Part shown: positions 4,501 to 58,719 of the stretch, one piece after another
How positions within the stretch are numbered: the first letter of the stretch is position 1
Layout of the letters: every line of letters starts with the position of its first letter
NCBI RefSeq assembly: GCF_037042905.1
Contig: NC_087251.1
Coordinates: forward strand, 35,590,001 to 35,654,000
Reading direction: 5' to 3'
DNA from: Lytechinus pictus
Lineage: Eukaryota
Length of the DNA stretch: 64,000 nt
Made by a program: the position numbers and the translations under genes
The notes under the pieces: generated by a model
Database searches by the model: none
Told to the model about the DNA's origin: nothing
Seen by the model: the letters and a program-made list of their open reading frames with translations, nothing else

Positions 4501-6785
4501 GCTCCCAAGCCCCCCCCCCCCCTCATCTATAATCCAGTGGCTTCGCCTTAAATGTATACATGTGATAAGGAGGGAGTACATCAGACCAAGGCGTTAATTA
4601 AGCGTTGTCATTTTGGTTGATCCCACCTCTTTCCCTCATTTTACATCAAGCCCCTAATGCCCGATCAAAAGGCAGATCACCCATACTAAATCAGTGACCA
4701 TACACAAAAAATTAACCCTATTAGATTTACAATCAATATCAATTTCAAGCACACGTGCATGATGTAGCCTATAAAACTGGAATATAATTTATTTAACCTT
4801 TATAATCCAACAATAAAGTGATAATTCAACAACAACAACAACAGCAAATTTATAATGTTACCGGGGTAGTGTTCTTGTTTACATATTGATTTGACTACGC
4901 TTCACCAGACTTGACACTTTGATAATGTCATTCTAATGACATTCTAATCGAATCACCAAACAGCTTTGTTTGCTAGACACTTCATGTCGGTGCTATGCAA
5001 GGTAAATCTTCTTTTTTTAAATATGAATTCATATGCACTAAAATCATTCTTTTCTCAGAATCTGTATATTATGTGATCATTTAAAAAAATGACCACCTTC
5101 CCGCCATAATTTTAAACACATCACAAGTGGGTGACACGACATATGCTTCTGCGACATTTCCTCTGCTCTTAATATCTCAGAGGACATAGGGTTAGAGTTA
5201 GGATTGTAAGAGGTTTTTTGTTCAGAATAATGTAAAGATAAGAATTAGGGTTTATTTAGTTTTAGAGGTTAGGTTTTGTTTGACTTAACGTGCAGATTTT
5301 CCATCTGATGAATTGTCGCCGGAGTAACTGTCATGGAATCCTCAAGAGTGCCCCATCTCAATGCCCATCCATGGCATAAGAAACCTGTATGCTAAAAACA
5401 CACCTCGTTGAAAACAAATGTTCTGAATGTTCGGTGTGCATTTATTCATGAGGCAGATCGGATGACGACACCTTTAGACACACTACATGTAGACCTACGT
5501 TTCTCGGCGGGGGGGGGGGGGGGGGGTCTTAAAATGAAAGGTTAACCCGACAGAATAGGCAAGAAGGTGCAATTGCTTGGATATTCTTTAAAGAGTGTTT
5601 AATTCTTTCGACTTCAAATCCCTAACGAATATTTGGTTGAGGAGGATCTTTATTTTTAATAATTTTAGAATCTGCCTTTCATGTGAGTTTTTACCCCGAG
5701 ACTTTATCTCAATTTTTAATGATGTAATATCAGTTACTTCACCTTTTTTCATCTTTCAAATATAAAGATTTTATAAATCTTCTAATCGATCGATAATTTT
5801 CCGATAATGAATCAACTCAGAGTAGAAATGGTAAGTGGAAAGATACAAAGATGTAGTGCGAGTCCAATGTAGGTTTTCTCGGGTCACTTTAAACCAAAGC
5901 CAATTACTAAGTATTTATTCTGATTGGTATAATGTTACATATCTACCCTTTTTTCTGTGTTGCGTTTTAATTACCATTGCCTCAGAAATAGATATCCACA
6001 ATCTATATATTTTCTTGTAGATGTTCAGTTCAATTCCTTCTTTCACAATTTATTTTTTTCCACTCGTTTCCATTGACATTTGTTTTCTTCCAGTCAGAAA
6101 TAACAAGCGCTATAAACTTAAGGGGCTTTAATAATTGCTCAAGCGATCGTTTGCGATCATTTGGTCACAATTATGTTGCACACAATTGCAATGGTTGTAA
6201 GCAGTCACAGCAACAATACATTATTGTGAAAGGGGTCTTATATAGGTATTCGTTATATGTATCGCGGTTATGTAATTTTCATGGCAATTTCGTAAGTCTG
6301 AAATGATAGATACTCGTTATCGTTCGATCACAATGATCATTTCGGGTAAAATTTGTTTTCATTCAGCGGATATGGGGGAGGGGCGCTGCCCTCCTGGAGA
6401 AGTCAATCCAAAATAATGTCGGATCCCCCTCCCCCAGCGTCAAGGGGGTGTGACTGGGGTGACGATTACTATTTTTTGCGGGGTTGCTCCTTTTTGGTCG
6501 CCCCGACTGGTCAGACCTGTTAAACAATTTTTTTTCTCTGAGTAGGCCAACATTATTTTCAGTATTTTCAACAATCGGTGTTCATTACTAAAATAACAAT
6601 ACCGTTTTCAATATTTTTATGGGCTAATTCACTTGTATTTTTTTCATTGCAGTGGATGTAGCAAACTGACCTTGCAACAGACGTGCTCGACCAACAGTAG
6701 TTTCAAGCAAAACCCACATTACCTTTCAGCTTCGAGATATAAACTTATTTCGGCTAAAACATAATACCTCGATTCCAGAAGCAGA

Positions 6786-9700
6786 ATGGCAAATCTGAAA
6801 CAGGTGAATTACGATGCAAGTGAAGACTTTCCTGATTTTACTGGACATCACAGTCTTCTGGCCAAATACTGCACTCAGGACATTTATAAGAAACTCCGTG
6901 ATGTTCAGACACCTTCTGGGTACACAATTGACAGGTCTATCCAAAATGGCGTCGACAATCCAGGTTAGAAGATGATTTTTTTTCCCACTAAAATAATTTG
7001 AGGTATATTTTAGCAATAATGATTTGTTCCCATGATTGGTTCCAATGAGAATCATATCTGACAGAAATGAGCGTTTTAATTTGTGATTATTACACTGATT
7101 AGTATTGTTCTTTTGCCATTATTTCATCAGAACAGTATAGTCATGTCGACTAAACTGAATATGGGCTATCCATCCGTTTTGCATTTTTTGTGTTTTTTAT
7201 ACGGAAAATAAATACTATACTATATCTGCGTTATTTCTATAATTACTACCAGTGTTATAATTATCATTGTGATTATTATTTTAACCGTTATTTCCATTAT
7301 CATTGTCATAATCACCATTATTATTTCCATGATTATTATATATAATAATGGTAGTAATAACTAAGTAATTCTATTCCTGCATATGACCCAGGACGATTAT
7401 AATCGTCTTGGGTCATATGCAGGAATAGAATTACTTCAGCAAAAGGGAGAATGGTTTAAAACATTTAAAGACATAATTACTATTTCGTTGATGGTATATT
7501 AAATAGTATATTCAATATTCAATTTGTGAAAGTTTTGAATTTCATTGTGTTTTATGAATATAATATTATTTTCTCCTCGTGCGATTTGTTTTTCTTTGTA
7601 GATTTCCATGTAGGTATTCTTGCCGGGGATGAAGAATGCTATACAGTATTTGCTGAGCTTTTTGATAAGGTCATCGATGAGTATCACAACGGCTTCAAAA
7701 CAACAGGTAAAAATGTCATAACGATTTTTTACTTATATGCTTTGAAAATAATACATGATTTCACAAAAACACCAATAAAATTTTTGAATAATTCATTTTT
7801 ATTGTTAAATCAAACGATGCCCGAATCCTTGTTAATGGAGGCATAGTCCTCGTATTACAAGAAACTTGTCGATTTTCGCAACTAAATTGCTACTTTGTAT
7901 TTAAAAATATGCTAGATCTCTAAATAGTGCATTGTCCTATTTTATTTTATTTCTGAATAATCGTTGATTTCTAAAAATTTTACATTTAAATTTTGTAAAA
8001 TAAAGACAATTAAAATACACCAGAAGTTTTATCTTCACGTCTTGCAATTGTACTACACATATAGTGAATTTTATCAAAATTTGTTTGTAATGAATGCATT
8101 CAGGTTTTTAGCTGCGGCATGTAAGATGTTAAATAAACCTTGTAATGAATTGAGTTGAAATAAAATAACATGAAAAGGTCCTGTATGGATTAGAATGGAA
8201 TGAAATTAAATGGAATGGCATGGAATGGAATGGAATGACATGAAATGAATCGAAAGAGAATGGAATGAAGTAAATGAAATGGAAATGAAATAAAATGAAA
8301 TGAAACGAAATTCTATGAAATGTTCTCTTTTTCTTTTTGTTCCTCCAGACAACCATAAAACTGATTTGGACCCGTCTAAGCTTGAAGGTGGACAGCTTGA
8401 TGATGACTATGTGGTCAGCTCTCGAATCAGGACCGGTCGTAATATCAGAGGTTTCGCTCTTTCACCTCACATCGCTAGGTGCGAGAGACGCAAGGTCGAA
8501 AAATTAGTTTCAGAAGGTGAGCCAAAACATCGCTTCATCCGTTTCATAAAAAGCAAATAACAATATTTCTTTTCACATCGACGCATTTAGATATGTTTAG
8601 TGTTATTTTAGAACAAATTAAGTTATCGTCTTCCTCAGAAATACAATGAATATACAATTCTTTCTTAGCTTTCGATTAGTTTTCTCATACTCCGATGACT
8701 ATTCTTTTGTTTTGACAATTGCTATACTAATTTTGTGCTTTGGGGGTGATTTTTTTTTCGTGAAATTGCGATAACTCTAGGTGTTTTTCAGATAGGCAAG
8801 TCCTCACAGATTATGCTTATTCTCCACTCCTTGGTTACTCTAGCAATAACCATTATTAATGCTAATTTGAATATTCATTATCTTATTCTTTCATTTTCTT
8901 TTTTCTTGACAGCCCTGTGTTCGTTGTCTGATGAGTTCGAGGGTAAATATTACTCACTATTAACAATGACACCAGAGGACCAACAGCAGTTGATTGATGA
9001 TCACTTCCTGTTTGAGAAACCCGTCTCACGTCACTTCCAGAGCGGTGGTATGGCCAGGGATTTCCCCGATGGGCGTGGCATCTGGTAGGTGTCCAATCCT
9101 CATCGAGGATCGCAGTCGATCCAGATTGAGATGGTGTTTTCGTTCCACGATGCATGATGGATTCGAGAACATACACTGTAAAAACTGTGGTGTTAAAACT
9201 GACACCAGTTGGTGTTAACAGAGGACCACGCCCAGAGGTGTTAAAATTACACCCCAGAGATTGAACATAACACCAAAGAGTGTAAATGTAACAACCAAAT
9301 GTGTTGTAATATCACCTATAGGTGTTAAACTAACACTGTAAATTAAACTGGTGTGTCCTCTATGTACACCGGTTAACACCACAGTTTTTGCTGTGTAGAA
9401 ATGCCCTTCATGACAATGAACAACCAAGGAGTCCTTTTAGGAAATTGGTGAATCATAGCAGCCTTTTCGTCCTGGACTTTTTAACAAACGACATATTTTG
9501 CAATTTTTGTACGCTTCGAAACTTTTCCGAAACTGTTGTTCCGGTTCACCAATATTCGACAAAGACCTCCCAGCTGTTTATTGACATTTGACGGGCATTT
9601 TCAATGCATTTATTGCGTTCTTGAACTTTTCTCTCTTTCGTTCTATAGTCACACCGGCGAAACAGACTCCTAGCCGATCAAAGATATTACGCTTTTTCTA

Positions 9701-12700
9701 ATGGAATATCATCGGTCGGTTTGGAGTCGGTTTCGTTAGTGTAACTGCAGCATAAACTCGACCCTATCTGTGAGGGTGTGTTCAACACTTAATGAAAGCC
9801 CAAAATGACGTCACTTTAACTTTCTGTTTTTATATCACTCTGAACTAATTTATTCATATCTGAAAACGAATCCTAATCAGAATTCCTGTCAATGTGAGAA
9901 ATTATATTTGTTTAAACTGCCATAAATTTGTCATTTTACACCAACTTGTAATATCTAGATATTCATCTGATATGGTTTCTATACAAATTTAGGTTGAATT
10001 TCTTCATAGATTTTAGAAAACTTAGAGTAAATCGTATATGGATTTATATGTACTGAAAAATTACACTAATAAATTTCGATGGGAATTCGATTAATTTTAC
10101 CTCGTTTACAATTACTTGTTCATGAATACTACGAGCATATTTGCGATGGGAAATGCCCGAACAAAGATTATTGTCCGTATTCTAGAATTAATCGCTTTGT
10201 TGTGTTACTATTGCTAGGCACAATTCCAACAAGACGTTTTTGGTTTGGATTAACGAGGAAGATCAAACACGTATCATCTCTATGCAGAAGGGCGGTAATA
10301 TGAAGGCGGTCTTTGAGAGGTTCTGCTCTGGTCTAAGCCAGGTGAGTCGTCCAGCGATTAATCGCTAATATGAAAGAAGAATTCTGATTCGTTCCTAGTC
10401 AGTCTACTGGGCAAAACGCGCATGCAACAATGATCTTGATAGGACATTTCATTTAGTAGCTCTAACCTCTGTGTTACGGGACCCTGATCCTTCTAATTCA
10501 GGGCCCGAACATCGAGTCTCGAAACATTCTCAGATTCTCATTTAAAAAAAGTCATGTTGTGTTATGACATTTTAGATATTTGTATTCGAATATTATCAAG
10601 AAATTTTGAAAGAAATTCATATTGTTATAGGCGAACTTTGAAATATGTGATGACATGGTGTCGGCAAAGTTTTAATTTTGGGCTTTTGATAAGGAAGGTA
10701 TCAAGTTCGTCCTCGTTTCTTGGGTATAATGAGTAATGTTGGAGGGCAAATGTGATCTTTAAAGAAAGTCATAACAGTCGTCAACTTTCTTTAACTATAT
10801 ATTTTTGGATCCATATGCGTTAGGACGAAAGGTTATTCGTTCATATGATTGTTCCTTGAACATCTTTAAAATTGTGCCATCGTTCTGAATAAGGTAGGTC
10901 TATGAATAAATAGTTCTATGAGTAATATTAATGATGTTCTTTATACCGGACATCCTACGATCAGCTCAGGGTTACTGTACGATTGACGGTCAGCGTCGGG
11001 CATTGTACGATCTGCGAATAGCTTCTGTATAACTTTGTCTTTGGGCCACCTTCACACAAGAAATAATAATGTTAAAACAAGAATCGTATCCCGTAGCCAT
11101 CTACGATGTCACATAATCGTAGACTAATCCATCGTACGAAGATCGTAACAATTGTAAACGAAGCATTATTGATGTTCTTTGTACCGTCTCGACTGTTCTT
11201 CATACTCTAGGTTGAGGGTAAGATCAAGGAACAAGGGAAGGAGTTCATGTGGAACGAACATCTTGGATTCATTCTGACCTGTCCTACAAACCTCGGTACT
11301 GGTGTCCGATGCAGTGTTCACGTAAGGATTCCAAACCTTGCCAAGGATGAGAGGTGCAAGGCCATCATGGGAGCTCTACGTCTACAAATGCGTGGCACAA
11401 GTAAGTCACCAAATGTATCAAGGATACATTTTTTAATAATAATCTGTATTGAACATTTCGTTTATGCTTTTTTTATTTTTTACGGGTATAAGGGTAAAGT
11501 GAAAAGCTTGAGTTTCCCACGTTTCCGATCAGACATATGAATCATAATCCCCTTTTTTGTCAGATTTGAGGATTCTGGTGATGAACTGTCCTTCCGCCAC
11601 ATCTGTTCATTCATAGTCAACTTATCGATACTTTATAAAAACTTAGGAGTGTTTCATCAACATTTGAATTTGACAAGTTGTCTGATCTGACAATTTGCTT
11701 AGGTTGTTATATCGCACATTTCTTATTGCAACTATCAGATAAAAATACCCGACTAGTCCTTTTATGAAATGTTCCCCGGATTTATCTTTGTTGTGGATCA
11801 TCAAGATATTTCAAAATCTTTATAAGAGTTCCTCGCAGTGAACCAAATTTCTTCTCCAACAATATTCAAGAAGGTAGATTTCTAACATAGCGTGTCCCTT
11901 TTTCTTTGAACACATCCAGGTGGTGAGTTCACCGAGGGTGTTGGAGGCGTCTACGACATCTCCAACCTGGACAGACTGGGAACATCCGAAGTCCAACAGG
12001 TTCAGTGTGTGATCGATGGTGTCACTACCATTATCAACATGGAGAAGAAGTTGGAGAAAGGGGAGCCCATCGATGATCTTCTACCAGGGTGAGGAACTCC
12101 ACAGTTTTCTCTTAATGGTCGAAGGGAAGCCCAACTTTGGGAACCGTTGCATGGAAGTTACCAACATGGTAACTTTGTTATCCAATGGTAACTTGCATGG
12201 AATCCTTGATTTTGATTGGCTTTTGTTCAGCGTTACCATGGTCGTTACCACTGGATTGCAAAGTTACCATAATGGTAGCGTTTATGCCACGGTGTCCAGA
12301 TTGCAAGTCCTTCTGAAGAATTATGAGAAGTCGAAGAAGCTAAATAACTAAATAAGCATAATATTAGTTTAACATAAAGGAATCTTAATCATTGACATCG
12401 TTTGTAAAAGTTACTCGCAATCGACCCCCTATATTCTAACTTAAAAAGATATCCATCTTTTCCAATTGACATGGGCCGTGAAACGAATTTGAAGTGAGGG
12501 AACTGAACCAAAAATGGGGCGGGAATTTATTTGATAAAATCCCTAATTGTTGAATTTTGAATTTTTGAATTTCAGAAACACTGAGAAGGTTAAGGAGGAG
12601 CAAGAGCAAGCAGCGAAGAAAGCGGCAGAAGAGAAAGCTGCGGCAGCCAAGCCCGCCACCAGCGAAGGCGCTGCATCAAGTGAAGAGAAACCAAAGAAGA

Positions 12701-12726
12701 AATCATCGACGTGTACCGTGTTGTAA
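6786..12726 (+). CDS. AK: Arginine kinase, echinoderm (creatine-kinase-derived) type; long form 418 aa with C-terminal CAAX, possible short form 369 aa ending at 12092
   Basis: Exons 6786-6963, 7602-7706, 8349-8516, 8913-9084, 10218-10341, 11211-11400, 11920-12088, 12576-12726; all GT-AG and in phase. Phosphagen kinase motifs [51 protein letters not shown]. The short specificity loop (DNPDFHVG), Tyr in DEYHNG and N-terminus MANLKQ match the echinoderm AK pattern as recalled. A 5' UTR acceptor lies at 6652. Confidence 0.93.
7363..7436. repeat. 74-bp loopless palindrome in an AK intron
   Basis: Arms 7363-7399 and 7400-7436 are reverse complements except one G/T position. Confidence 0.9.
8190..8312. 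repeat. Degenerate (GGAAT/GAAAT)n pentamer microsatellite
   Basis: Seen directly, just upstream of the acceptor at 8348. Confidence 0.85.
9174..9395. mobile_element. MITE with CAC...GTG termini and TA flanks
   Basis: CACTGTAAAAACTGTGGTGTTAA ... TTAACACCACAGTTTTTGCTGTG, with TA on both sides and internal GGTGTTAA/AACACC subrepeats. Confidence 0.75.
9644..9751. mobile_element. Short palindromic MITE; related copy at ~13382-13490
   Basis: AGTCACACCGGCGAAACAGACTCC...GGAGTCGGTTTCGTTAGTGTAACT is an imperfect inverted repeat; a similar element lies 3' of AK. Confidence 0.55.
12135..12298. mobile_element. Degenerate palindromic MITE in the last AK intron
   Basis: TGGGAACCGTTGCAT ... ATGCCACGGTGTCCA imperfect TIR with GTTACCA/TGGTAAC subrepeats. 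Confidence 0.5.
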
Positions 12727-15700
12727 TATATGGAATTTAAAAAATATGCAGGTGGACAAAGTCTTGACTTGATAAAGAGAGGAATTACGCTAATAAGTTC
12801 TTTGACACAATTGCAAGCTAAGAAAATGAAAGCAAGTTATTTTCATGGATAATGAATGTCATTCATGTTTTCAAATGAAGTTTAAACATGTGGTTTGTTA
12901 CTGACAAGATGATATAAATCATGTGATGATCTAGAACTATAATGAATTAATATTATGTTTAATAATTGTTTGATAAATATTACGAGTTCCATCTGTATTC
13001 CTACTGATTTAATTAAATAATTCTGATTGAATTGAATTAATAGATTTAATCAATTTAGGTTATTTTCTTTAAAAAAAAGTTAATATTTCTCTCAATTTTC
13101 ATGATCATGTTGTGATTATTGCTAAAAATATCCTTTGAATTCATAAGTTACCAAAATGAAATGAATAATGTAAAAGTCCTTTGGTAAATATCTACCAGAT
13201 TTGAGCAGATGTTTATAATTTCATTGGTCAAACTAAATTGATGGAATACCAATATAAAATTTCCTGAAATCTTTAACCTTGAATTTGATTCATGCCATGA
13301 AGGAAAAAAATTGTTTTTGCGTAAACTCAACGGAATATGTTGCTTATTTTGTACAGCTTACGTTCATACAGAGTATGTTTGGCTACAGTCACACCAATGA
13401 AACCGACTCCAGTCCGATCAAAGCTATTATGTCAATTCGAATTGTATCGTCAGTAGGATTTGAGTCGCATTCGTTGGTGTGAACGTAACTTCACTGACTG
13501 AGCGTTGATGACACTATGCGTGAGGAATGCTGACTGATCGATGAAGTTAGATCTGTAATTATATTTTGAATAGCACATGACGCCAGTTTCATGGTCTATA
13601 TATTTTTATGTAGAGATGACATGATGAACAAATGTACATTGAGTTGCATGGTATATGGTATTATGGATCTGTACAAGTTTAATTTGGCTTAAATTTATGA
13701 AAAACATGGGGAGCGTTTCACCAACGGATTTCTCAGTTTTTTTCCAAAGGTTAGCGTAGTAATAGTCAAGATCTGACAACTTCTGAGACGACACCAGTTT
13801 GTGAAACGCTCCCCAATTCTATTTTTGTGTGTGTACTAAATTACACAGTATTGTATGGGTATATCCGTCCAACGTTTTCACAGTGTATTATACTTTTACG
13901 TGATATTTTCTTTGTAAATATTATATGGTATGCTTAGAATATTCAGATATTGTTTGATCTTCCACTAAATCTAAGTGAAGGGGTGCTTTGGTTTTATATA
14001 CTTTTTTGTGTTTCCAAAACCCCTTTCGTTGTATAAGAGCACGAGACATGACTGTGTTACATTCTTCATGACAACTGCCACGGCCTAAGTCTCTTTAATG
14101 ATCTCTGGCAATTTTCCCTATCATATTAAGGAATAGTCAACTCTTATCAGAATGTATGAAAAAAGTATGACATTCTAGCAATCAGAGATAAGACTGTAAT
14201 ATATATTTATATATCTCCCCTTAGCATATGGAATGGACAAATTAATTCCATGAACTTCCTTTATGATTACACTAGACGAGCATCAAATTAACCTGAACTG
14301 CCAGTAATGTGTAGACAAAAGTAAATTTTGCGCATGGTGCCGCCATTCATTGGGTTCTCGGGAGATGGGGCAACTTTCCCCGTTCCTACTTTACTCTGGG
14401 GTTCTTGGGGAGGGGGAAATATAGACCACATGTCCTTGTCAAGAGACAACTCACCAAAGCGAGAGGGAGAGAAAGAGAGGGGGAAAAGTGGTCACCCCAC
14501 GCTCCCGATTAGGCTCCTCCATGCAGCGGCTTTCCAATGCGCAGATAACCTTCAAGAAGACCGGTACATTCGTACAATATGCTGTTTAAAATTCTCTTTG
14601 AATTTGAAACGTATCTTTATTTTTTCGTCTAAGATTGGACAGTTTTTTTCTCTGTTTAACAGTGACGCTTTGTGATTATTTCAGAACCAATGTCTGTGGA
14701 ATTTGACAATAATAAAACGTCATGCACCTACGTACTGAAAATGCATCTTGTGTTCATTTTGTGAGGGTGCATATACGTGAGAGTGTGTGTTTTATATTAG
14801 TACAAAAAATCGTATTCATTTTAGTAAACTTTGACTGATGGCAAATTGCCCTCAATAAACATGCGTTTCTGTGTTTGAGATTTAGACCTATAGAATCTGA
14901 GCATTTTAAATACATTTTATATATTGTGAAAATCAATAATGCGAGCGCGAAGCACGCATATATTTGATATTCTGATATTTCTTTCAGGAAAAAAATGACA
15001 ATTTAATCATGAATTCATGAAAATGTTATCTTATTTATTGATCTAAAAAGCCTAATGAGAGCGCGAAATTTGTGGACATTAAGGCCTAAAAAATGGACAT
15101 TATTTTTAAGCACTTTTGTAATTATGAAAAGGATGCATGGTTTCATATATTATTAACAATTAACGCGAGTGGAAATCGCGAGCCGAAATTTTCGATAAAT
15201 TCATGAAAATAGGAAGTTAAGTAGTTTGTTACAAAATTACTCACCAAAGAAAATGCGAGCGCGCAGCGCTATAGCTGGTTTTGACAATCAAACCTGAAAA
15301 GGGTTATTTTGAGAACTTCATGGAATACATGAAGAGAATATAGTTACTTGAAAATGTTGATACTCAAACAATAAAATGTACATTTTACAGAGCACTTTTT
15401 GAAAATCAATTTGTTAATAAAAGGAATAATGAAAGCTCGATGTCAGAGCTGAAATATGTTTCGTATATTGCCTTCAAAACTTGTTATTTTAAACCCCATA
15501 CCAGCCTATGCGAGCACGAAGCGCGAGCGAAAATTTATTGTGACATAAAAGATTTTTTTAAATTTTCCAAGTCTTTCCCTCACATTATTTTATTTACTCT
15601 TCCTCTTCTTTTTTTCTCCTCTCTTTTCCCTTCTTTTTTTTTTTTTTTTTTTTTTTGTCTTTCTTTCCCCCGTTTTCCTTTTTCTTTGCTCCGCCAATAA

Positions 15701-25821: not shown

Positions 25822-28800
25822 GTCTTAAACATTATAGTAAGCTATTTCAATATCAAAATATTAAAGCAATTTCAATATTTCATACGCCTAGACATATTTC
25901 AATATTTTTTTTTAATCAAAGTTTGCTACGATTAGACCGATATTGAACGGTTCGTTTAGTGTAATTCAGAATTATTTTCATTTAACATCAATGTTTACTT
26001 TGTATGGATTGATGATATTATATTTTAAACAGCTAAATACCTTGATAGTCCACTGTAGTAAAACAACATAAAGCTTTGTTTTAATCAATTTATACTTACC
26101 CCATGCCTGGCTGAACCAAGAATGAGAAGTGACTCGTTTTCCTCCACACTATTTCTATTACTTATCTTCTTTGATACAGGCTTCTGTTCCTAGGGGAGGG
26201 TTCTCTGTATTCTGTGTCCAGAAACAACCGGTAAATACCTTTAAGATGTCTAATTCAATATAAGCGATGGAAACTTTTTTGAAGGGGATGGGTTAACTTT
26301 GATTTTCTCAAGCTAAAATCGTGGAAACAAATTGCTCATTGGTGTAGCAGATATTACATTTTTTTCAAAGTAATTAAATGCCCCGAAGCGTACTTGCATT
26401 ATTTCAATTCCTTGGAATTTACATCTTTATGAAACAAAAGAGCCATCTAATGAAGATGTTAACCTCGTGTATTTATTTACAGGACACTGGAACTTCTCCT
26501 GTATCTGATTCCATCACAACGGAACACAAGGGAACATCACAACCCGATGAAAAGGTATTGGTTAGTACTAATCTTATAGTATCTTTTACCTTTAACTATT
26601 GATGTAAAAAAACACGATAATGGTGTCTGCCTTATTGAAGAGTTCTGCATAATGATGGTTATAATAATAATAATAAATGGGTTCGTACATGAATATCGCT
26701 CAAATCTTTCAAACCTGTCGAGACAACGGGCTAGCTTTTCAAGGGTACCTCACCTTGGTCGAGTTTGGCAAACGTATAGAGTGGTAATATTTTCTCCTCG
26801 ATCTTAAAGTGTGTGTTTCCAAGTATTTATTTGGTAGATAGGAGGGAGATTGCATCTAAATGTAAAGCGGCCTTCCACAACGTCACAGATACATAAAGTA
26901 TTGCATGCACGATTAAAACATGATCATATTTTCTTAATATTGTATAAATATTAATCATTAACCGGGAATTGTCACAAACTTACCTTTACGATCAAGAATA
27001 CTGTTTTCAAAGAATGCAGTTTTCAAAGATTGCATTCAAATGAAAGTTATTGATATATTTTCATAAATTTAACTTAAACCTTTATTTTTCTTATCTCAAA
27101 GCTTGTTGCTCCAAAAGGAGGATTTTCCATCTTCTCCGTGAACAAGCAACCGGTAAGTATATCAGAATGTAAGACCTTAGTTAATATGAGATGGATTTGG
27201 AATCTAGATAATGGAAACTGTTATCACTGATTAAAAGAATTTGAAATTTCTCTTCTGATTTGTAAATATAATTCTGAAACTTGTTTGACCTTAACTTACC
27301 CAAACAGATTGAGCATCAAAAAAATATACTCTCATGCTCAACGATTCCTTTTACATACTTATTACAATGTAAGGCACTTTTCTTCATTTTATTTAATCAG
27401 GACACCCTGCCTTCTCCCAAGAACTCTGGCATAGATGTAACAGATCACACGCAGAAGAACAATTCTGTGAATAAGGTATGTGAAACAAAACCCAAAATGC
27501 ACATTATATACCAAATAACCATATTTAAATTTTCTTTGAGTTTCATTAAATGTGTTTGAATCGAAGTAAAAGGATTTGAATATCTTAAATTTTGTACAAT
27601 TTCCAGTTTTAGTTTCAGTTTTATGAATGATACATCAGAAGGTTATTTCATCCATTAACATCATAATCATGATGTTAAAACTGTTAAAAATGAGAGATAT
27701 ATTTTTGCATATAAATCAAGTTGATTTTTTATGATCGAGATATATATATTTACAATATTCAACTTATTTGTTGCAACAGGATCAACCCAGTGGTAACAAT
27801 GGCTACAGCTTCCTGCCACGGATCACACCATCCATTGAATCCACTGTGTCATCTTCTCCTAAGACCATCAAAGGATCCGGATCTGATGTCCAACTGACCA
27901 ACTGTCCTCTGGAGAGTCCACCAGCGACATGCAAACCCTATCAAGAGCCTTTGAAGACCAAGGCCCCTTGGGATTCTGTGTCTGATGGAAAGGTACACAA
28001 GACCAGAGTCGCTGAGAATCTGAAACAGATCGTTATCAGTCCAGAAGCTGACTCTAACATGGACAAGGACGCTGATGAATCCGGATGTTTTACGAGCCTA
28101 AGCCAGGTCAACGGCGGCACGTCTAAAGTGAAGCTCATTCACGTTCGTCCAGCTCCAGATGCTAACTTGCCGATTACGACCACTGGAGATTCCACATCTG
28201 ATACTGCAGTTACTAAGATCCAAAGCCAGAATAACAGTAGCACTCCAAATGTGAGGGTCATTCAAGTAAGACCGGCCAACGACCCTTACTTTAAGATCGC
28301 TACTACCAGGGAATCTAGACCTTCTGACCTGGCTTGCAGGAATGGGAGTTCAACTAAGGCATGCAACAACACCGTGACCAGCGCACGCCTCATCACCGTG
28401 AAACCAGTGCAAGAGCCCCTGCAAACCAAGGTCAATGATGTATCTGCTACAGGAGTCCAGAAGATCCTTGATGCTACGAACGCGGCTGTTACGGGAATTA
28501 AATCTACTTCCACTGAGATCACAGTCTCCAAGCCAACGCCACCTTCCGTTGCAACGAATGACGTGCTCCCGATCAAGAACCTCGGACCTCTTGTCGACCC
28601 ACTGAAGTGGCAGTACCCAGTTCCTCCTCCTAAGATCCAGAACTGGACCACCGAGCCACTAGAGCTGTCAAAGAGCCCTCTCCCCAGCAGCGGACAAGGA
28701 GAAGTATCTCTGAAAAATCTCTTCGATCTGAGCCATAGACATCCAACCTGTCCTGAAGAATCAGATACTGTTTCCAGATCTCAAAACCTCGATGTTGTTC

Positions 28801-31800
28801 CCGCGGCAAATGGAGGAGATTTTTCCAAGGTGACCTATGATTTTCTTTGAAATGTTAAGCTTTTTTCCCCCCTCATATAACCTTTCATACTATTAACTAA
28901 AACTACTTACCTGGCTTAAATGATTCCGCGGACTTCTCTTTTACTTGAAAATAAATATGCATCTAGAGTCTTTTTTTAAAGAATCTTTGAACGTAGTAGT
29001 TTATGTTTTTGTTCTTATAACTTCTATCTAGCCTTCCAAAAAGACCCGGAAGGAGCCTTCTAACAGACGATTTCCAAAATCAACCAACCCGGGAATGACT
29101 CCAGACACATCTTCTGATATCCAACAAACGGTAATTGATGATAATAATATGATAACTTTGTATAGTGCAGCTGCTATATAGATATACTCTACTGCGCTGT
29201 ATTTACTCCAATTGCTTATACTATACGTACTAAAAATTATGATCTACTTAACGAATTTTTAATTTCTTTCTTTAGTGATATGTGCTGACCCAATAAAAAA
29301 AAAATTTCGTCATTCTTTTATTGCAAATGAAAATGATAACGAAAATACATTAATGAATAAGAATAAGTGTTATTAAAACCTTGAATTTGATCAAAATGGT
29401 GTCAAATGATCGTATATTACCAAAGAAAAAATAGAAGTGCACTTATTACATGCACCACACAAATCAGTATTTAGGAAAAATCTTACTTCTACCACTTTGG
29501 TTTTTTTTAATAGTTTATCATCTTTTTCAAAAACCACGATCTCAGTCTCATTTTTGTCTCACCTGCGAAGCAGAGTGAGACTATAGGCGCCGCTTTACCG
29601 ACGGCGGCGGCGGCGTCAACACCAAATCTTAACCGAAGGTTAAGTTTTTGAAATGACAGCATAACTTAAAAAGTATATGAACCTAGTTCATGAAACTTGG
29701 CCATAAGGTTAATCAAGTATTACTGAACATCCTGCTTGAGTTTCACGTCACATGACCAAGATCAAAGGTCATTTAGGGTCAATGAACTTTGGCCAAATTG
29801 GGGGTATCTGTTGAATTACCATCATAACTTTGAAAGTTTATGGATCTGATTCATATAACTTGGACATAAGATAGTCCGGGTTATAATTGAGCAAGGTGCC
29901 ACACGGAAAAGTAGAAATTTTTATATAATGCTTCTAAACCAGTTTTTTACGCTGAATATGAATATATGAGGTAATCAGGCTGTATCCTGAAGATTAACCT
30001 GTGAGGGCGCTTTTTTCAAAATGGCCGCCAAACTTTCAGAACATTTGAATTTTCATACATAGATTTTGACATAAACATTACATTGCCACAAAAGTAGTGT
30101 CATATGAAAGACAAAAAAATTCCACCAATTTGGTACTATTTATCGGGGATAAGTAGGTCATTTGACTGAGATTTTAAGTCGAAAACTGCATTTTTTGTCA
30201 TTTTTTCCAAAAATTGAAAATTTTGGAAATACATGATTTTACATAATTCTAAGAAATATAAATCAATTACCTTGAAATGCTCCAGAAAACTTTATTGATT
30301 TACTATTATTATGTGGATAAAATTCCAACTCTGTATCATTCTCTTTAGCAAATTTATGAGGTATCAAACTTGAATAATCAAATTTCAGAAATGTCGCTTT
30401 TTTTGTATGCATTTCCGTAGACTAATACGTATAACATGTATGATGTTTAATTAAAAACTAAATGCAATTATTTACACTTTTTAACCACTTGGAGAGTCAA
30501 GAGTAGGCGTTTCTCTATCAGCTAAAAAAAGATGTGGGCACATCGAGGCCTACCCGCGGCCCTCTCGGGGGTGGGTGTCAAAGTCACAGCCCCCCCCCCC
30601 CCTCACCCTGGCCCCATGGGTGGGGCAAGTTGAGCCATTTGACATCTTTGAAAGGTGATAGTGACTTTTAGTGTCGAGGTAGAATGTTATACATGGGTTA
30701 AAAAAATGTTTCCCAAGAATGAATCTTTAAGGCAGAGTACTTATTTCTACGAGATTTTGAATCATAAGATCTAACATGAAAAAAGAAAAAAAAATGGTTC
30801 AACTAACCCCGCCTTCCCCTACGCTTTGTTCTACCAGCTACATCTAAAGAAGAGGCAAATCGAAGCCTACCCTTCTCGGGGGATAGGGGGTGTGGAAGTC
30901 ACCTTCCCTCTCATTGCCAATTTATTTGAAAATTCACCTTTTTGGACCCAACATTGAAGCAAAAAAGCGTTTGTGCTTTGCACATCGATTCCTAGCTCTC
31001 TCAGGGGCTAAGTCACGTACCACCCCCCCTCCCCCTTATATCATGTATATTGCCTGTTAATTGGAAATTTCACCATTTTGGTTCACACATTGAGGCATAA
31101 GAGCGCTTCTACTATATAATGCAGCCAATTTTATTTTCTTGCAATGACTTGGAGAGGAAAGGGTATCATTTACATATAATAATAATATGTCCATTTATAT
31201 AGCGCAGTTACTATGTGCATATACTCAACTGCGCTTTGATACTTGGTATCATATTATTACCCCGGCTGTAACTGAGCCGCCATATTAATAGGCGCTCAAG
31301 CGTTCAAGGAATAAATCCTACTGAGTACCCATTCACATCAGCTAGGTCGAGTGCAGCATAATGTGGACAAATTTCTTGCCGAAGGAAATTACGCCATGGG
31401 TGGGATTCGAACCTATGACCCTCTGTTTCAAAGCCACAACGCTCCACCATAATATTATAAAGAAGCTCTCGTACATCGAAACCTAGTCCCCAAAGGGGCT
31501 GTCTAAGTCACCCTCCCCCCTCTATATCATGTCTATTGCCTATTTAGTGGAAATTTCAACATTTTGGATCGCCCATTGAAGCAAAAGGGCGTTTCTTCTA
31601 TATAGTACAGCCAATTCTATTTTCTTGCAATAACTTGGAGAGGAAAGAGTAGGCTTTGCTTTATCAGCTTCATACTATAAAGAAGTGTTTGCATATCAAA
31701 GCCTATCCCCTTCAGGGGGCTGTAGAATTTACCCCATCAATTTTTGGTATTTGGATATTTATTGGAAAAGTCACCATTTTGGAGCCCCCATTGAGGCAAA

Positions 31801-45867: not shown

Positions 45868-48800
45868 AGTAGTAGTAGTAGTATTTATTTCCGTATTAAA
45901 AGCACAATTATATACAATAAAATACGGTGGATAGCCCACATTCAGCGTGACTGGCACAGTAGCGCTGGTCTTCCGTGGGGTCCATAACATTTAACATTAA
46001 CGTATAATTTAGACACAAATAAACCACATTAGATTAACAGATGTACAGAAGAAAAATGAAAATGTAAATATCAACAGTAAACATATTAAGATTTAAAAAA
46101 AAAAAAAAAAAAAAAAAAATTAAGGGGCGCAAACCTAACAGGGAATGGGGGGGGGTACCGGAGTCCATGTGCTACAGATCAACAATCTTAGATTTGAAAA
46201 TATTAATACTAGGGGATGATTTGATGTGAAGAGGAAGGGAATTATAAGCCATGGCGCTTTTATACTTGAAGGATCTTTTGAGGTAATTTGTTCTTGGTTT
46301 TGGTAATTTAAATTTGGTTCCGAAACGGGAGGGATACGTATGTGATACTAACTCAAATTCATTTCTTAAATATTTTGGAGATAGATTATTCATGATCTTA
46401 TACATGAGAATAAGGGAATGATCGTTTCTTCTTTTGTCCAACAATTGCCAATTTAGTGTATCATGCATTTCCAAAATAGATATATGAGATTCGGGTTTAA
46501 TTTGGAGTATAATACGACCTGCTCTGTTTTGCAGTTTTTGAAGGCGGTCTGTGTATTTCCTAAAGGATGCATCGTAAACAACATCACCATAATCAAAGTA
46601 GGGGAGGATCAATGAACTATATATTAATTTCAGGATCGATTCACTTAAGGATCGCCGCAATCTTCCCAGAAAGCCGACTAATTGACCTATTTTTTGCAAC
46701 ATGTTGTCTATATGCAAGTTAAAATTCAAATAATCATCAACTATGATGCCTAGGTATTTGACATGATGAACTTGTTCTAATGGGGTATTATTTAAGGAAA
46801 CATGAAGGACATTTTGTTTAGAAATCATATTCTTGCTTCCGATGAGCATACAGACCGTTTTTTGACAGTTAACACTTAACTTATTCTGGCACATCCATTG
46901 GTACATATTTTCTAAATCTGAGTTTAGGGCCTCGTTGATTCTATCTATGGAGGGGTGTGAAAAATACAAAACGGTGTCATCCGCATACAATTGGATATGA
47001 CATGTATTAATACATTTCACTAGATCATTGACATATAATATAAAGAGCAGTGGCCCCAGGAGTGATCCCTGGGGCACACCGCAGTTAATAACTGATTCAT
47101 AAGAGAGTTCCGAATTGATAAGAGTCCTACAAACCCGGTTTGACATGTAACTTCGAAACCATAAGGATGGTGTGCCAGAAATACCTAAGTTATTCATTTT
47201 TTTCAAAAGAATATCACAGTTCACGGTGTCGAATGCTTTTTTTAAATCGACGAAGACGGCCCCAATGTAATGTTTAAGATCGATTGAGTGAAACCAGTCA
47301 TTGGTTACCTTTAGGAGAGTGGTAATGGTTGAGTGCCTTGGCCGAAAACCGGATTGGGCAGGTGTCAGAATATCATTATTTCGCAAAAAATCTAAAACTT
47401 GCCGTTGGACAACCCTTTCCAGTATTTTAGATACGCAGGGCAAAATTGAGATGGGCCTATAATTCGAAGGAGAATTTTTATCGCCACCTTTGTGAATTGG
47501 GATAATCTTAGCTTGTTTCCATTGTTGCGGAAATATACCGCTTGACAAAGATAAATTAATCAACTTAGCAATACTCATTGATATCTCCATAGAGCATGCC
47601 TTCAAGACAAAGACAGATATCTTATCAACACCGACAGACTTAGTGTTTTTAAGATTTCTTATGATTTTCAAAACATCATGTTCGTTCACCTGAGTGAATG
47701 CAAAAGTCTCATTTGTATAATTACCATCTTCTGTATGGAGGTTCATATCGGGTATTTCACTGGCTAATTGTCTCCCTACATTTGCAAAGTAAGTGTTGAA
47801 TAGGTTAGCAGTTTCAGTATTACAATCCGAATTAGACGAAACTGTGAGATTTTCACGTTTTTTATTCGGAATAATGGACTTTAAGGTTTTCCAAGTCTGT
47901 TTTGGGTTTACCTTAAGATTTGTAAATTTATCAGAGTAATACCGTTTCTTTGATTTCCTTACTTCATTTGTTACCTTATTTCGTAATATTCTGTACTCGC
48001 ACATAAGTTTATCATCTTTCAGTTTGCAAGCTTTTCTTTTAAGTTTGTCACGTTTTTTCATGAGTTTACAAATATTTGCATTCATCCAAGGAGAACCCTT
48101 TGTACTTATTCTTTTTGAACGATTTGGCATGTGTTTGTCAACAACTTGTAAAAACATATTTTGCCATAAATCGACAGCATCATCAACTGAATTACATTGA
48201 TCTATACTTTCCCAATTCTGGTTACGAATATCATTTCTAAAGTCATCAATATTGAGCTTGCTGCAACTTCTGAAAGTGATAAATTTTGGCTGAGCACAAA
48301 TCTTAGAGTTCCAGGTCAGGAAGCTAATCGAATGGTCACTCATTCCGTTATGAATTACACCATGATTCACTAAGTTTTTGGTGTTGTTTGTTAATAGGTG
48401 ATCAATCAATGTAGCAGAAAGATTAGTGATTCTTGTTGCTTCTTTGGTATTAACTTGGACCAGAGAATAAACATTATTTATATCAATATATTTCTTGGTC
48501 ATGCTTGATAAGGGTTTAGCTAGGATATCACAGTTTACGTCACCTGCTATAACTATATCACAATTCATTGTGTCAATAATGCTTAGAAATCTTTCATACA
48601 AATTAAAGATTCCAATATCTGAGGATGGTGGTCTATACCAAGTTGATACGATGAGAGGTTTTGAAAACTTGAGATAAATCTTAATAACAAGTGCTTCTAA
48701 ATCATCAAGGAATTCGTGAATCATTTTTTCAAAATGTAATGAATTGTGGAGATAAATGGCTACTCCACCACCCTGTCGAACTCTGTCTTTACGAACCAAA

Positions 48801-49320
48801 TTGTAATCGTCAATCATAATTTCTTTATCATAGATAGATTCATCTATTTTGGTTTAATTAATTGCGAATACCTGAACCTTGTTAGTCTTAACAAATGTTC
48901 TCACTTCTTCAATGTGTCTTAGTAGGCTGTTAACATTTAAATGGGCGATCTTAAGGCCATTACCACGTAATTCTTGGTAGTATAAACCATGAATACAAGC
49001 AATGTTTCGGTGGGTAGTATTTGTACTGACATTAACTGACTCTGGAATAGTGATATTTTCCGATTCATTATAGAAGGGCATGTCCTTAAAAATACAAATG
49101 TTGCATTGCCAACCGAAAAAGTTCTCTGACTTGTCATTGTAGATCTCTTCAGGAATACCAGCACAAATGATATGTAGCCATTGATTGCATTTGGTACACT
49201 TCAGTCCCTTCTGATTGTTCTTAACCGGTTTCATACAACAGGCACATGCTTTCATATAATCTTTCATATATTCTCAAGGAAAATACATGTATGTTCATCC
49301 ACGTTGGAATGACCCATGCA
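45868..49320 (-). mobile_element. CR1/L2-group non-LTR retrotransposon (PHD-APE-RT), near full length
   Basis: ORF with APE and RT motifs; 3' UTR with stem-loop-like GGACCCCACGGAAGACCAG...TGTGGGCTATCC, then AATAAA and a (TAC)n tail ending at ~45868. Confidence 0.92.
46172..49267 (-). pseudogene. LINE ORF2 (PHD finger, AP endonuclease, reverse transcriptase) with one in-frame stop at 48854-48856
   Basis: PHD CACC..CTKC.QWLH..C...WQCNIC; APE motifs HLNVNSL, YRPP, GDVN, LIDH, SDH; RT motifs YRPISIL, QSGFR, DLKKAFD, GVPQGS, YADD, YLG. ORFs 48854-49267 and 46172-48817 share a frame (AIN*TKIDESIYDKEIMIDDY). Confidence 0.92.
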
Positions 49321-49600
49321 GCATCCGTAAAAATCCGTAAGAATCCGTAAGAATCCGTAAAAATCCGTAAGAATCCGTAAGAATCCGAAAAAATCCGTAA
49401 TAATCCGTAAAAATCCGTAAAAATCCGTAAAGATCCGTAAGAATCCGTAAAAATCCGTAAGAATCCGTAAAAATCCGTAAGAATCCGTAAGAATCCGTAA
49501 GAATCCGTAAAAATCCGTAAGGATCCGTAAGAATCCATAAGGATCCGTAAAAATCCGTAAGGATCCGTAAAAATCCGTAAAAATCCTTAAGAATCCGTAA
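49321..49600. repeat. Decamer tandem array (GAATCCGTAA/AAATCCGTAA)n
   Basis: About 28 units immediately 5' of the LINE ORF. Confidence 0.95.
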
Positions 49601-49708
49601 AATTATGTGAGTAATCGAAGTCCTTTCGCGCGCGTTTCATGATTACGTATTATTACAAGGTTGAACGTTAATTTTCTTCATTTCCCAACAAATAATCATC
49701 GAGTCAAC

Positions 49709-50882
49709 ATGAATACGTTGGATATGCCCAACCGTTACGCTTGTTCACGATGCGATAAAACCTTTAGTAGGAGGTACGATATGCAAAGGCATGAACAAAA
49801 CGAGCATGATACTGGACAAGAAACGAGTGAAGATGAAGACTCCGACCCATCCTCTCAAATGCAAAGAGTTGAAGAATCCAACGATGATTCTGAAACGAGC
49901 GTATCAGAAAGCGATGGACACGAATCGTCAATGACAGCAAACATGGAAGAAACTGAAGCCCGGGGGGGGGGCACTCGACCACAAAAGTGGTGGGGGTGTG
50001 CCGCGGGCGAGACAAAAAACGGGGGCCTTGGAGCGGGCTTATTGTAAAAAGGAGGGTCCTCGGAACGGGCTTCGGAACTACAAATGTTTGTGAAAACGGG
50101 GGTCCTTGGAACGGGTCGCCTGCGTGCGAGTGCGTATACATCTCTATGGAACGTGCATGCAGCTGGGCTACGGCACGACTGCCGGGCGCGCTAGCGCAGA
50201 GGCGATGGTTAGACAGCGAGTTGCGGCCGCTTTTCACCAAAATTGCGACCGGAACGGCGTAACGGAAAATATGCGAAGCCCTGGAGCGGAATTTTGTTCT
50301 TCTTTTTTCTCGAGAAGAAGAAAATGCTATGCTTTGGAGCGGCTTTCTTTGTTCTTTTTCTCAATAAGACAAAAATGCTATGCCTCGGAACGGAAATTTG
50401 AGTGTAAAAATGGGGGTCCCCTCCGCGGCACATACCCACTATGCATTATATACTGAGTGCCCCCCCCCCCCCCGGGAACTGAAGACAACCTCGCTTATCG
50501 CGGATGGTTAGAGCAAGCCATGACGGCCACCAAGGACTTGAGAGACGAAAAATATCAGAAATACATCTCAGAAGGAATGGAAGAAGAAGACGCTAAAGCA
50601 AAGGCTCACGTGAAACTAATGTGGGCAGTCAAACGCATCTTTTTCGATCTTTACTCTCAGTTCTTGCAGCAGAACGTGTACCACGAAGACGCTGACATCA
50701 ATCGTGAAATCGTGTCCGATCTCTCGGAAAGATTAGAGAATGGCATGGAATTCCGGAAAGCCGTACAGAGAGTGTTAGCCAGGCATGGTTCACAATTCGA
50801 TGGTTTATTCCAGTATCGAGGTGACGATGACGATGATGATGGTGGAGAAGAAACGGAGGGTGAAGATGGAGTCTACAACTAA
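49709..50882 (+). pseudogene. Intronless C2H2 zinc finger / acidic / helical-domain gene (215 aa when reconstructed), disrupted by a MITE; probably Polinton/Maverick cargo
   Basis: YACSRCDKTFSRRYDMQRHEQNEH finger; deleting 49959-50484 joins ...MEETE to DNLAYRGWLEQAM... in frame to the stop at 50880-50882. Confidence 0.8.
49959..50476. mobile_element. 518-bp MITE with CCCGGGG(n)CACTC TIRs and 8-bp TSD
   Basis: TSD AACTGAAG at 49951-49958 and 50477-50484; a second copy of the right end lies at ~60660-60857. Confidence 0.92.
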
Positions 50883-58368: not shown

Positions 58369-58719
58369 GTACCTTAGCTTGATACAAAATAATTTATTAT
58401 TCTCATAAGCCTGTATTTTAAGAAGCCACAGAGCTTCCCTCTTTAACACTTTTTCTGATGCACCCTTGCAATGTTCATAAATACTATGCTACAAGAAGAA
58501 TAATATACCTGAAGGCAACAAAAAATAATCGATGACATTATGATAATGTGATTACTTACTCATTTTGAACTTCTCCTTGTAAGCATGGGGTATATTATAC
58601 AATTTAGGCGCCGCTTAAAAAATTGTACACTGATATAATATTAGCAAAAGTAAAGGAAAGACTATCCCCCAGCAAAGCACAATCATATCATCTTTTACTA
58701 CCCTTTTCCCAACAACTTC

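What the first reader, a model, noticed from the sequence alone, without database searches (positions are those of the whole stretch)
12576..12726. Arginine kinase carries an extra terminal exon ending in a K-Ras-like polybasic CAAX box
Seen: donor GG|GTGAGG (12088) to acceptor TTTCAG (12575) adds [50 protein letters not shown]; this exon is absent from the ORF track. Known: CaaL is a geranylgeranyltransferase-I signal, and an adjacent lysine cluster directs proteins to anionic membranes; typical AKs end at the preceding DDLLP-like sequence. Inference: a membrane-tethered ATP-buffering enzyme held on a helical E/K/A spacer (cortex, cilia or muscle membrane). I recall a prenylation signal being reported in a crinoid AK, so this may be a little-studied echinoderm feature rather than wholly new.
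Basis: partly seen in the sequence, partly recalled or inferred. Interest (0 to 1): 0.75.

Follow-up and report, generated by a model that had tools for sequence, protein, structure and literature searches.

The report
Echinoderm arginine kinase with lipid-anchor tail
A sea urchin energy-buffering enzyme really does carry an extra last exon that encodes a lipid-anchor signal; the signal was already reported in a feather star, but it turns out to be shared by all five echinoderm classes, with starfish and brittle stars apparently making anchored and free forms from one gene.

Summary
Observation confirmed. An eight-exon gene encodes a 418-aa creatine-kinase-type (dimeric) arginine kinase, identical to RefSeq XP_054758355.1, which already includes the tail. 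The 12088-12576 junction is in spliced contigs of two runs from two studies, at the depth of the upstream junctions, so the tail is the main form. It is the counterpart of the prenylation-signal tail published for feather-star AK1 (Chouno 2015; title and sequence seen, text not). New here: the tail occurs in named species of all five echinoderm classes; KK at -9/-8 and Cys at -4 are invariant in 26 of 26 distinct tails while the spacer is free. Crinoids, urchins and sea cucumbers also have a tail-less paralogue; starfish and a brittle star have long and short isoforms of one gene, and one pair differs only at the junction residue (K versus N), as read-through of the phase-2 donor predicts. Best reading: geranylgeranyl anchor tethering ATP regeneration to a membrane (0.7); prenylation and location are untested. 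'K-Ras-like' overstates the basic patch (net +2), and the helix is not conserved. New member of a known kind.

The parts
6786..6963 (+). coding exon 1 (start codon; N-terminal domain); transcript contigs extend upstream past 6743
   Evidence: PF02807
7602..7706 (+). coding exon 2 (guanidino-specificity region of echinoderm AK type)
8349..8516 (+). coding exon 3
8913..9084 (+). coding exon 4 (its phase-2 donor also reads as a stop if unspliced: control)
10218..10341 (+). coding exon 5 (NEED motif)
11211..11400 (+). coding exon 6 (active-site Cys273)
11920..12088 (+). coding exon 7, end of the catalytic core; donor splits codon 369
12089..12575 (+). intron 7, phase 2, GT..AG; unspliced reading stops at TGA 12090-12092 (369 aa); no AATAAA/ATTAAA inside; holds a dispersed repeat near 12170-12260
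12576..12726 (+). terminal coding exon 8: the tail (the finding)
12580..12645 (+). predicted E/K/A/Q helix, residues 371-392
   Evidence: block pLDDT 87, 78
12646..12687 (+). predicted disordered spacer, residues 393-406
   Evidence: pLDDT below 50 from 394
12688..12711 (+). lysine patch K407-K411 and Ser/Ser/Thr 412-414
12712..12726 (+). CaaL box CTVL (Cys415) and stop
12727..15450 (+). 3' UTR; shown to 14032, end near 15450 is an extrapolation from contig length and AATAAA at 15370/15416
   Evidence: (X15 record 9 has 1419 more letters beyond 14032)

Best explanation
The gene is the tail-bearing (AK1-type) echinoderm arginine kinase. Shown: exon 8 is spliced on as the main form and adds a low-complexity spacer, a lysine patch and a CaaL box. 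Inferred from established CaaX biochemistry: GGTase-I adds geranylgeranyl to Cys415, the last three residues are removed and the Cys methylated; the lipid plus the lysines hold the enzyme on the cytosolic face of a membrane. As the enzyme family is dimeric, two anchors per dimer would make up for the weak basic patch (inferred). The spacer keeps the catalytic core off the bilayer, where it regenerates ATP from phosphoarginine next to membrane ATP consumers, as membrane-bound creatine kinase does. A soluble pool comes from a tail-less paralogue in urchins, sea cucumbers and crinoids, and from a short isoform of the same gene in starfish and brittle stars. Which membrane is not known; plasma membrane/cortex and cortical vesicles are the leading candidates.
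For: Junction depth equals upstream junction depth in two runs of two studies. Protein identical (0 of 418 differences) to XP_054758355.1. Best fold match is the dimeric echinoderm AK 3JU5, 72% identity. 32 of 67 full-length echinoderm-type AKs fetched end in Cys-x-x-x, against 5 of 290 other phosphagen kinases of 340 aa or more; among 26 distinct tails Cys -4 and KK -9/-8 are 26 of 26, terminal Leu 25 of 26 (Ile 1), while tail length runs 29-66 aa with no conserved spacer: selection acts on the anchor motif only. GGTase-I targets CaaL/I/M, X being the main determinant and polar a1 tolerated. C-terminal prenylation tags were tested in sea urchin embryos and worked in most species. The tail-bearing S. 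purpuratus orthologue XP_786080.3 (P0082) is listed, with 2 peptides, in a cortical-vesicle membrane spot. Lipid anchoring of phosphagen kinases has precedent: myristoylated T. brucei AK3 and sea urchin flagellar CK.
Against: No direct evidence of prenylation or of location. The basic patch is weak here (net +2; range +1 to +4 across tails). Starfish tails have Ala or Thr at a2 (6 of 26), which is non-canonical and may block cleavage and methylation. The cortical-vesicle identification is 2 peptides in a spot dominated by ATP synthase beta, in a preparation where about half the hits were metabolic, typically mitochondrial, enzymes, so it is weak. Raw RNA reads gave no listed read across the junction; the supporting runs are assembled contigs whose RNA status is not on record, although they skip all seven introns.
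Confidence: 0.7

Rival explanations
1. The protein is prenylated, but the lipid serves as a trafficking handle (for example a PDE6-delta-type carrier delivering it into cilia) or a protein-binding handle rather than a steady anchor at the cortex.
For: Lipidated cargo import into cilia by PDE6-delta/Unc119 is established, and a myristoylated AK uses it in T. brucei (passages). Urchin embryos are ciliated and use AK (own knowledge).
Against: No cilium-specific motif tested or seen; the conserved KK next to Cys fits plain membrane binding; the only proteomic hint is from unfertilised-egg vesicles.
Confidence: 0.14
2. The box is farnesylated (or takes either lipid) and, with only a weak basic patch, the enzyme cycles between cytosol and endomembranes.
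For: Some CaaX sequences take both lipids, and an upstream basic region favours dual specificity (passage and a reference title). Net charge only +2.
Against: Terminal Leu/Ile in 26 of 26 tails over all five classes is what selection for GGTase-I would leave.
Confidence: 0.11
3. The tail is not prenylated; the Cys is palmitoylated or unmodified and the end is a protein-binding (for example PDZ-type) motif.
For: Non-canonical a2 residues in starfish; Asp at a1 in the brittle star.
Against: Cys fixed exactly four residues from the end with a hydrophobic last residue in every tail; GGTase-I is broader at a1/a2 than the consensus.
Confidence: 0.04
4. The exon is a chance or rarely used piece and the protein normally ends at the stop that overlaps the donor (369 aa).
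For: Unspliced reading gives a complete core with a clean stop; a 204-nt intronic contig at depth 3.5 exists in X1.
Against: Junction at full depth; the unique half of the intron has depth 4 (X1) and 0 (X15), like pieces of other introns at 3-9; no poly(A) hexamer in the intron; the stop is a by-product of any phase-2 GTRAG donor (2 of 2 phase-2 introns here); phylum-wide conservation. Contigs drop rare forms, so a minor short form is not excluded.
Confidence: 0.01

Closest known systems
Tropiometra arginine kinase 1 (BAS02800.1; Chouno et al. 2015, PMID 25964010; title only seen)
   Same: CK-type echinoderm AK, 70% identical over the full length, about 50-residue tail starting at the same residue, same KK-S-S-T-C-x-x-L end; accompanied by a tail-less AK2.
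   Different: Spacer sequence unrelated; class Echinoidea rather than Crinoidea. One-to-one orthology is likely but not firmly resolved by the core tree.
Dimeric arginine kinase of Stichopus/Apostichopus japonicus (KARG_STIJA, PDB 3JU5/3JU6)
   Same: Best fold match, 72% identity, TM 0.9 over the target; same specificity-loop type.
   Different: No tail; belongs with the tail-less paralogues. The same species has a separate tail-bearing gene (P0117).
Rap1B/Rho-type polybasic + CaaL anchors, and K-Ras4B
   Same: Basic residues, then Ser/Thr, then CaaX; Rap1B ends in Leu, is a GGTase-I substrate and has phosphorylated serines before its Cys.
   Different: Fewer basic residues than K-Ras4B's six lysines; attached to a metabolic enzyme through a 40-residue spacer; no sequence homology claimed.
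Myristoylated phosphagen kinases: sea urchin flagellar CK, Trypanosoma brucei AK3
   Same: Lipid-anchored ATP-regenerating kinases.
   Different: N-terminal myristoyl anchor, other kinase lineages, flagellar location shown.
CaaX / CaaX-less isoform pairs by alternative 3' processing (annelid lamins, abstract; lamin A/C and secreted/membrane IgM, recalled)
   Same: One gene gives an anchored and a free product, as the starfish and brittle-star AK pairs appear to.
   Different: Unrelated proteins; in the window's own gene no short form was detected.

Membership tests
ATP:guanido phosphotransferases | PF02807 + PF00217 domains, NEED motif, active-site Cys and Arg set | tested here: met
   (E 4.5e-28, 2.3e-74); E221/D223, C273, R120/R122/R282/R310 invariant
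CK-derived echinoderm arginine kinases | falls in the echinoderm AK clade apart from CKs | tested here: met
   40-row clade at 100/100 on core-only tree
CK-derived echinoderm arginine kinases | short specificity loop and GTSGEFT flexible loop as in Stichopus AK | tested here: met
   alignment; fold match
CK-derived echinoderm arginine kinases | arginine as substrate; dimer | not testable with these tools
   inferred from relatives
AK1-type (tail-bearing) echinoderm AK | C-terminal extension beginning at the last core residue and ending in basic + CaaX | tested here: met
AK1-type (tail-bearing) echinoderm AK | tail-bearing genes form one clade | tested here: inconclusive
   backbone open; one side of a branch with support 61, crinoid+holothurian+urchin tail genes 92 (quick tree); tail-less clade not rejected, p-AU 0.27
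GGTase-I substrates (CaaL) | Cys fourth from the end, aliphatic a2, terminal Leu | tested here: met
   CTVL against consensus
GGTase-I substrates (CaaL) | actual geranylgeranylation and membrane binding | not testable with these tools
   needs bench work
K-Ras4B-type anchor | run of six contiguous lysines | tested here: not met
   4 Lys in 5 residues, net +2 against six in K-Ras4B
K-Ras4B-type anchor | farnesyl-directing last residue (Met, recalled) | tested here: not met
   last residue Leu

The most novel reading that the evidence does not exclude
The anchor exon was gained once, at the base of the echinoderms, by turning the enzyme's old last codon plus stop codon into a phase-2 splice donor. 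Since then every class has kept both a membrane-anchored and a soluble arginine kinase, three classes by linked paralogues and the starfish/brittle-star line by a splice-versus-read-through switch at that donor; the conserved Ser/Thr between the lysines and the Cys may act as a phosphorylation switch. Separate phosphagen-kinase lineages have reached basic CaaX ends independently (P0243, P0248, P0258, perhaps P0185), so prenyl tethering of ATP buffers would be a recurring, unrecognised design.
Probability: 0.4. Interest if true: 0.55.

Novelty: new member of a known kind. Interest (0 to 1): 0.36.

Why it matters
Local ATP regeneration at membranes is a long-standing idea that is hard to test because most phosphagen kinases bind membranes loosely. 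Here the anchor is a single removable exon with a one-residue null (Cys415) in a tractable embryo model, with a natural soluble paralogue as control. It extends a one-species report to a whole phylum. It is not a new kind of system: the protein is in RefSeq with its tail and the signal was named in 2015.

Tried and rejected
No whole genome is held for the window, so the paralogue's position and other species' intron DNA could not be read. The Chouno 2015 paper is not held. No holder was on record as RNA ('no RNA holder listed'); raw runs X19 and X20 were too shallow on this gene to show the junction. The idea that the stop overlapping the donor is a special design in this urchin was rejected: it follows from any phase-2 GTRAG donor and no short form was seen. 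No tail-less paralogue lies in the window: tblastn with P0220 hit only the same seven core exons. The high depth at 12089-12331 is a dispersed repeat with loose ends, not intron retention. An elephant-shark CK ending in CNVL (P0185) found no relative with that tail (1 of 48 candidates, itself), so it was not used as evidence of a deuterostome-wide feature. The core trees could not resolve the order of duplications. Literature searches for a functional study or a phylum-wide survey (open-access library only; one guessed gene id matched nothing) found only the 2015 title. An AK clone induced about twofold by lithium could not be assigned to either paralogue. Earlier scan findings: none by sequence or words. 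No complex prediction was run. Supplements of the papers were not opened; those of PMC6958363 could bear on soluble versus membrane AK.

Full report
Observation. Exon 7 ends at 12088, GT begins at 12089, the acceptor AG ends at 12575, and the phase-2 splice yields the quoted 50-residue tail with its stop at 12724-12726. My first trial of exon coordinates was off by one; the corrected model has eight coding exons, seven GT..AG introns, 418 residues and one stop. Of 1198 stop-to-stop frames of 30 aa or more in the window, 2 end in a CaaX-like pattern and only this one also has three or more basic residues before the Cys.

Expression. I laid 4 of the 21 listed runs on 6743-14032. Contigs of X1 and X15 (two studies; RNA status not on record, but they skip all seven introns) carry the 487-nt skip at depth 597 and 158.3, equal to the upstream junctions (597-636 and 158-160). 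In X1 only 28 letters lie on the short side and the next listed contig starts at 12616 with depth 427; in X15 one 3360-nt contig joins exons 6, 7, 8 and the 3' UTR, with 1419 letters beyond 14032, which would end near the AATAAA sites at 15370/15416 if colinear (the far part looks repeat-rich). The unique half of intron 7 has depth 4 and 0. The raw RNA runs X19 and X20 hold 0-3 reads per upstream junction and none listed for this one; X20 has depth 0.94 over exon 8, X19 has 0. So the tail is the main form where the gene is well expressed; a rare short form is not excluded.

Identity. The spliced protein equals XP_054758355.1, named 'arginine kinase-like [Lytechinus pictus]', at 418 of 418 residues: the exon is already annotated. 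Pfam finds both phosphagen-kinase domains and nothing in the tail. The AlphaFold2 model (58-row alignment, mean pLDDT 82.9) matches the dimeric echinoderm AK 3JU5 best (72% identity), then creatine kinases; the tail is a helix at 371-392 followed by disorder. A core-only tree of 50 proteins puts it in the echinoderm AK clade (100/100), apart from CKs.

Distribution of the tail. Tail-bearing proteins came from 14 named species: crinoids (Tropiometra AK1, Antedon, Anneissia), urchins (S. purpuratus, two Lytechinus, two Diadema), a sea cucumber (A. japonicus), starfish (two Asterias, Patiria, Acanthaster) and a brittle star (Amphiura). Of 387 proteins fetched, 70 carry the echinoderm-AK loop motif; 3 partial ones were dropped; 32 of the 67 full-length end in Cys-x-x-x, against 5 of 290 other proteins of 340 aa or more. 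These are not independent counts, since close relatives and isoforms are included. Among the 26 distinct tails, Cys at -4 and KK at -9/-8 are in 26, the last residue is Leu in 25 and Ile in 1, position -7 is Ser or Thr in 26, and length runs from 29 to 66 with no conserved spacer. The helix-forming E/K/A composition is seen in urchins and partly crinoids; sea cucumber spacers are Pro-rich and starfish spacers short and Asn/Thr-rich.

Soluble counterparts. Crinoids, urchins and sea cucumbers have a second, tail-less gene ending at the junction position, mostly in Lys or Gln. For starfish and Amphiura I found no separate paralogue among the hits (these searches are not exhaustive) but long and short isoforms: of 7 pairs compared, 6 are identical over the whole short form and one (P0061/P0110) differs only at its last residue, Lys in the short and Asn in the long form. 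I had predicted this pattern beforehand: with a phase-2 junction the two forms share two bases of that codon and the short form takes its third from the G of the donor, followed by TAA or TGA. It proves a phase-2 junction at that codon; read-through of the donor is the simplest cause, but an alternative tiny exon is not excluded without genomic DNA, and the Amphiura short form ends ten residues further on. Hemichordate and brittle-star cytosolic CKs end in Pro-Lys at this same position, so the donor plausibly arose from the old last codon and stop (inference). In the window the same overlap exists (stop at 12090-12092) but is trivial, as the other phase-2 intron does the same. The trees do not settle whether tail genes are one clade (support 61; tail-less clade not rejected, p-AU 0.27).

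Mechanism. CaaL/I/M is the GGTase-I consensus, the last residue is the main determinant, polar a1 is tolerated and aliphatic a2 leads to cleavage and methylation (passages of PMC7958859 and PMC11152559). CTVL meets this. The basic patch is modest (4 Lys, net +2), closer to Rap1B-type ends than to the six lysines of K-Ras4B; a dimer would carry two anchors (inference). Rap1B serines just before the Cys are phosphorylated and alter prenylation and location, so the conserved Ser/Thr here may be a switch (untested). Membrane-bound CK feeds ion pumps and other ATPases (passages of PMC3080659), which is the likely role by analogy. The one experimental hint is the tail-bearing S. purpuratus protein in a cortical-vesicle membrane spot, with 2 peptides beside ATP synthase beta, in a preparation rich in metabolic enzymes (passages of PMC6958363): weak.

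What is known. Chouno et al. 2015 reported the first prenylation signal in a metazoan phosphagen kinase, in feather-star AK; I saw only the title in the reference list of PMC6429109 and the deposited AK1 and AK2 sequences, so that paper may already mention urchin or other orthologues. Myristoylated AK3 of T. brucei (preprint passages) and urchin flagellar CK are functional analogues; CaaX and CaaX-less lamin isoforms are a splicing analogue (abstract of PMC10125929). Passages only were read for PMC11492440, PMC1929154 and PMC12633465. Eight searches of the open-access library gave no functional study or phylum-wide survey; subscription journals are mostly missing.

Verdict. Real, well supported, and a new member of a known kind. 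What this check adds is the five-class distribution, the sharply defined motif, the paralogue-versus-isoform split and a probable origin of the exon. Interest 0.36.

Noticed in passing
P0243, P0248, P0258 (representative library): 3 of 147 newly listed distant phosphagen kinases (two- and three-domain, about 39-45% identical, unnamed) end in basic residues plus a CaaX box (CTLL, CSIM, CVVI): likely independent gains of a prenyl signal.
   Followed up: partly
P0185 (UniRef A0A4W3JIZ4, Callorhinchus milii): A vertebrate cytosolic CK model with a 20-residue extension ending in CNVL; no other cluster with this tail was found, so it may be a gene-model artefact or a cartilaginous-fish isoform.
   Followed up: partly
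P0090, P0091, P0104, P0157, P0222, P0236: Several echinoderm AK/CK isoforms have N-terminal extensions: an Arg/Ser-rich, presequence-like one in Asterias rubens that occurs with or without the CaaX tail, and a Met-Gly start resembling a myristoylation site in an Amphiura CK isoform.
   Followed up: no
window 46172-49273, minus strand: Non-LTR retrotransposon-like element: 893-aa frame with reverse transcriptase (RVT_1, E 5e-39) preceded by a PHD-finger frame.
   Followed up: partly
window 49643-50882, plus strand: A C2H2 zinc-finger frame followed by an acidic helical frame with no Pfam hit, next to a short tandem array at about 49220-49640.
   Followed up: no
window 9173-9415, 9700-9750, 10388-10630, 11660-11700, 12170-12260, 13304-13546: Dispersed repeats in the AK introns and 3' UTR that collect reads from other loci; some show strand-switch joints, as small inverted-repeat elements would.
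   Followed up: no
window 27735-28850 and 57912-58382, plus strand: Long open frames (371 aa Ser/Thr/Pro-rich; 156 aa) with no Pfam hit, probably exons of neighbouring genes.
   Followed up: no
window 12603-12616: In run X1 the listed transcript contigs appear to break just after the junction and depth drops from 597 to 427, possibly an allele in the spacer.
   Followed up: no
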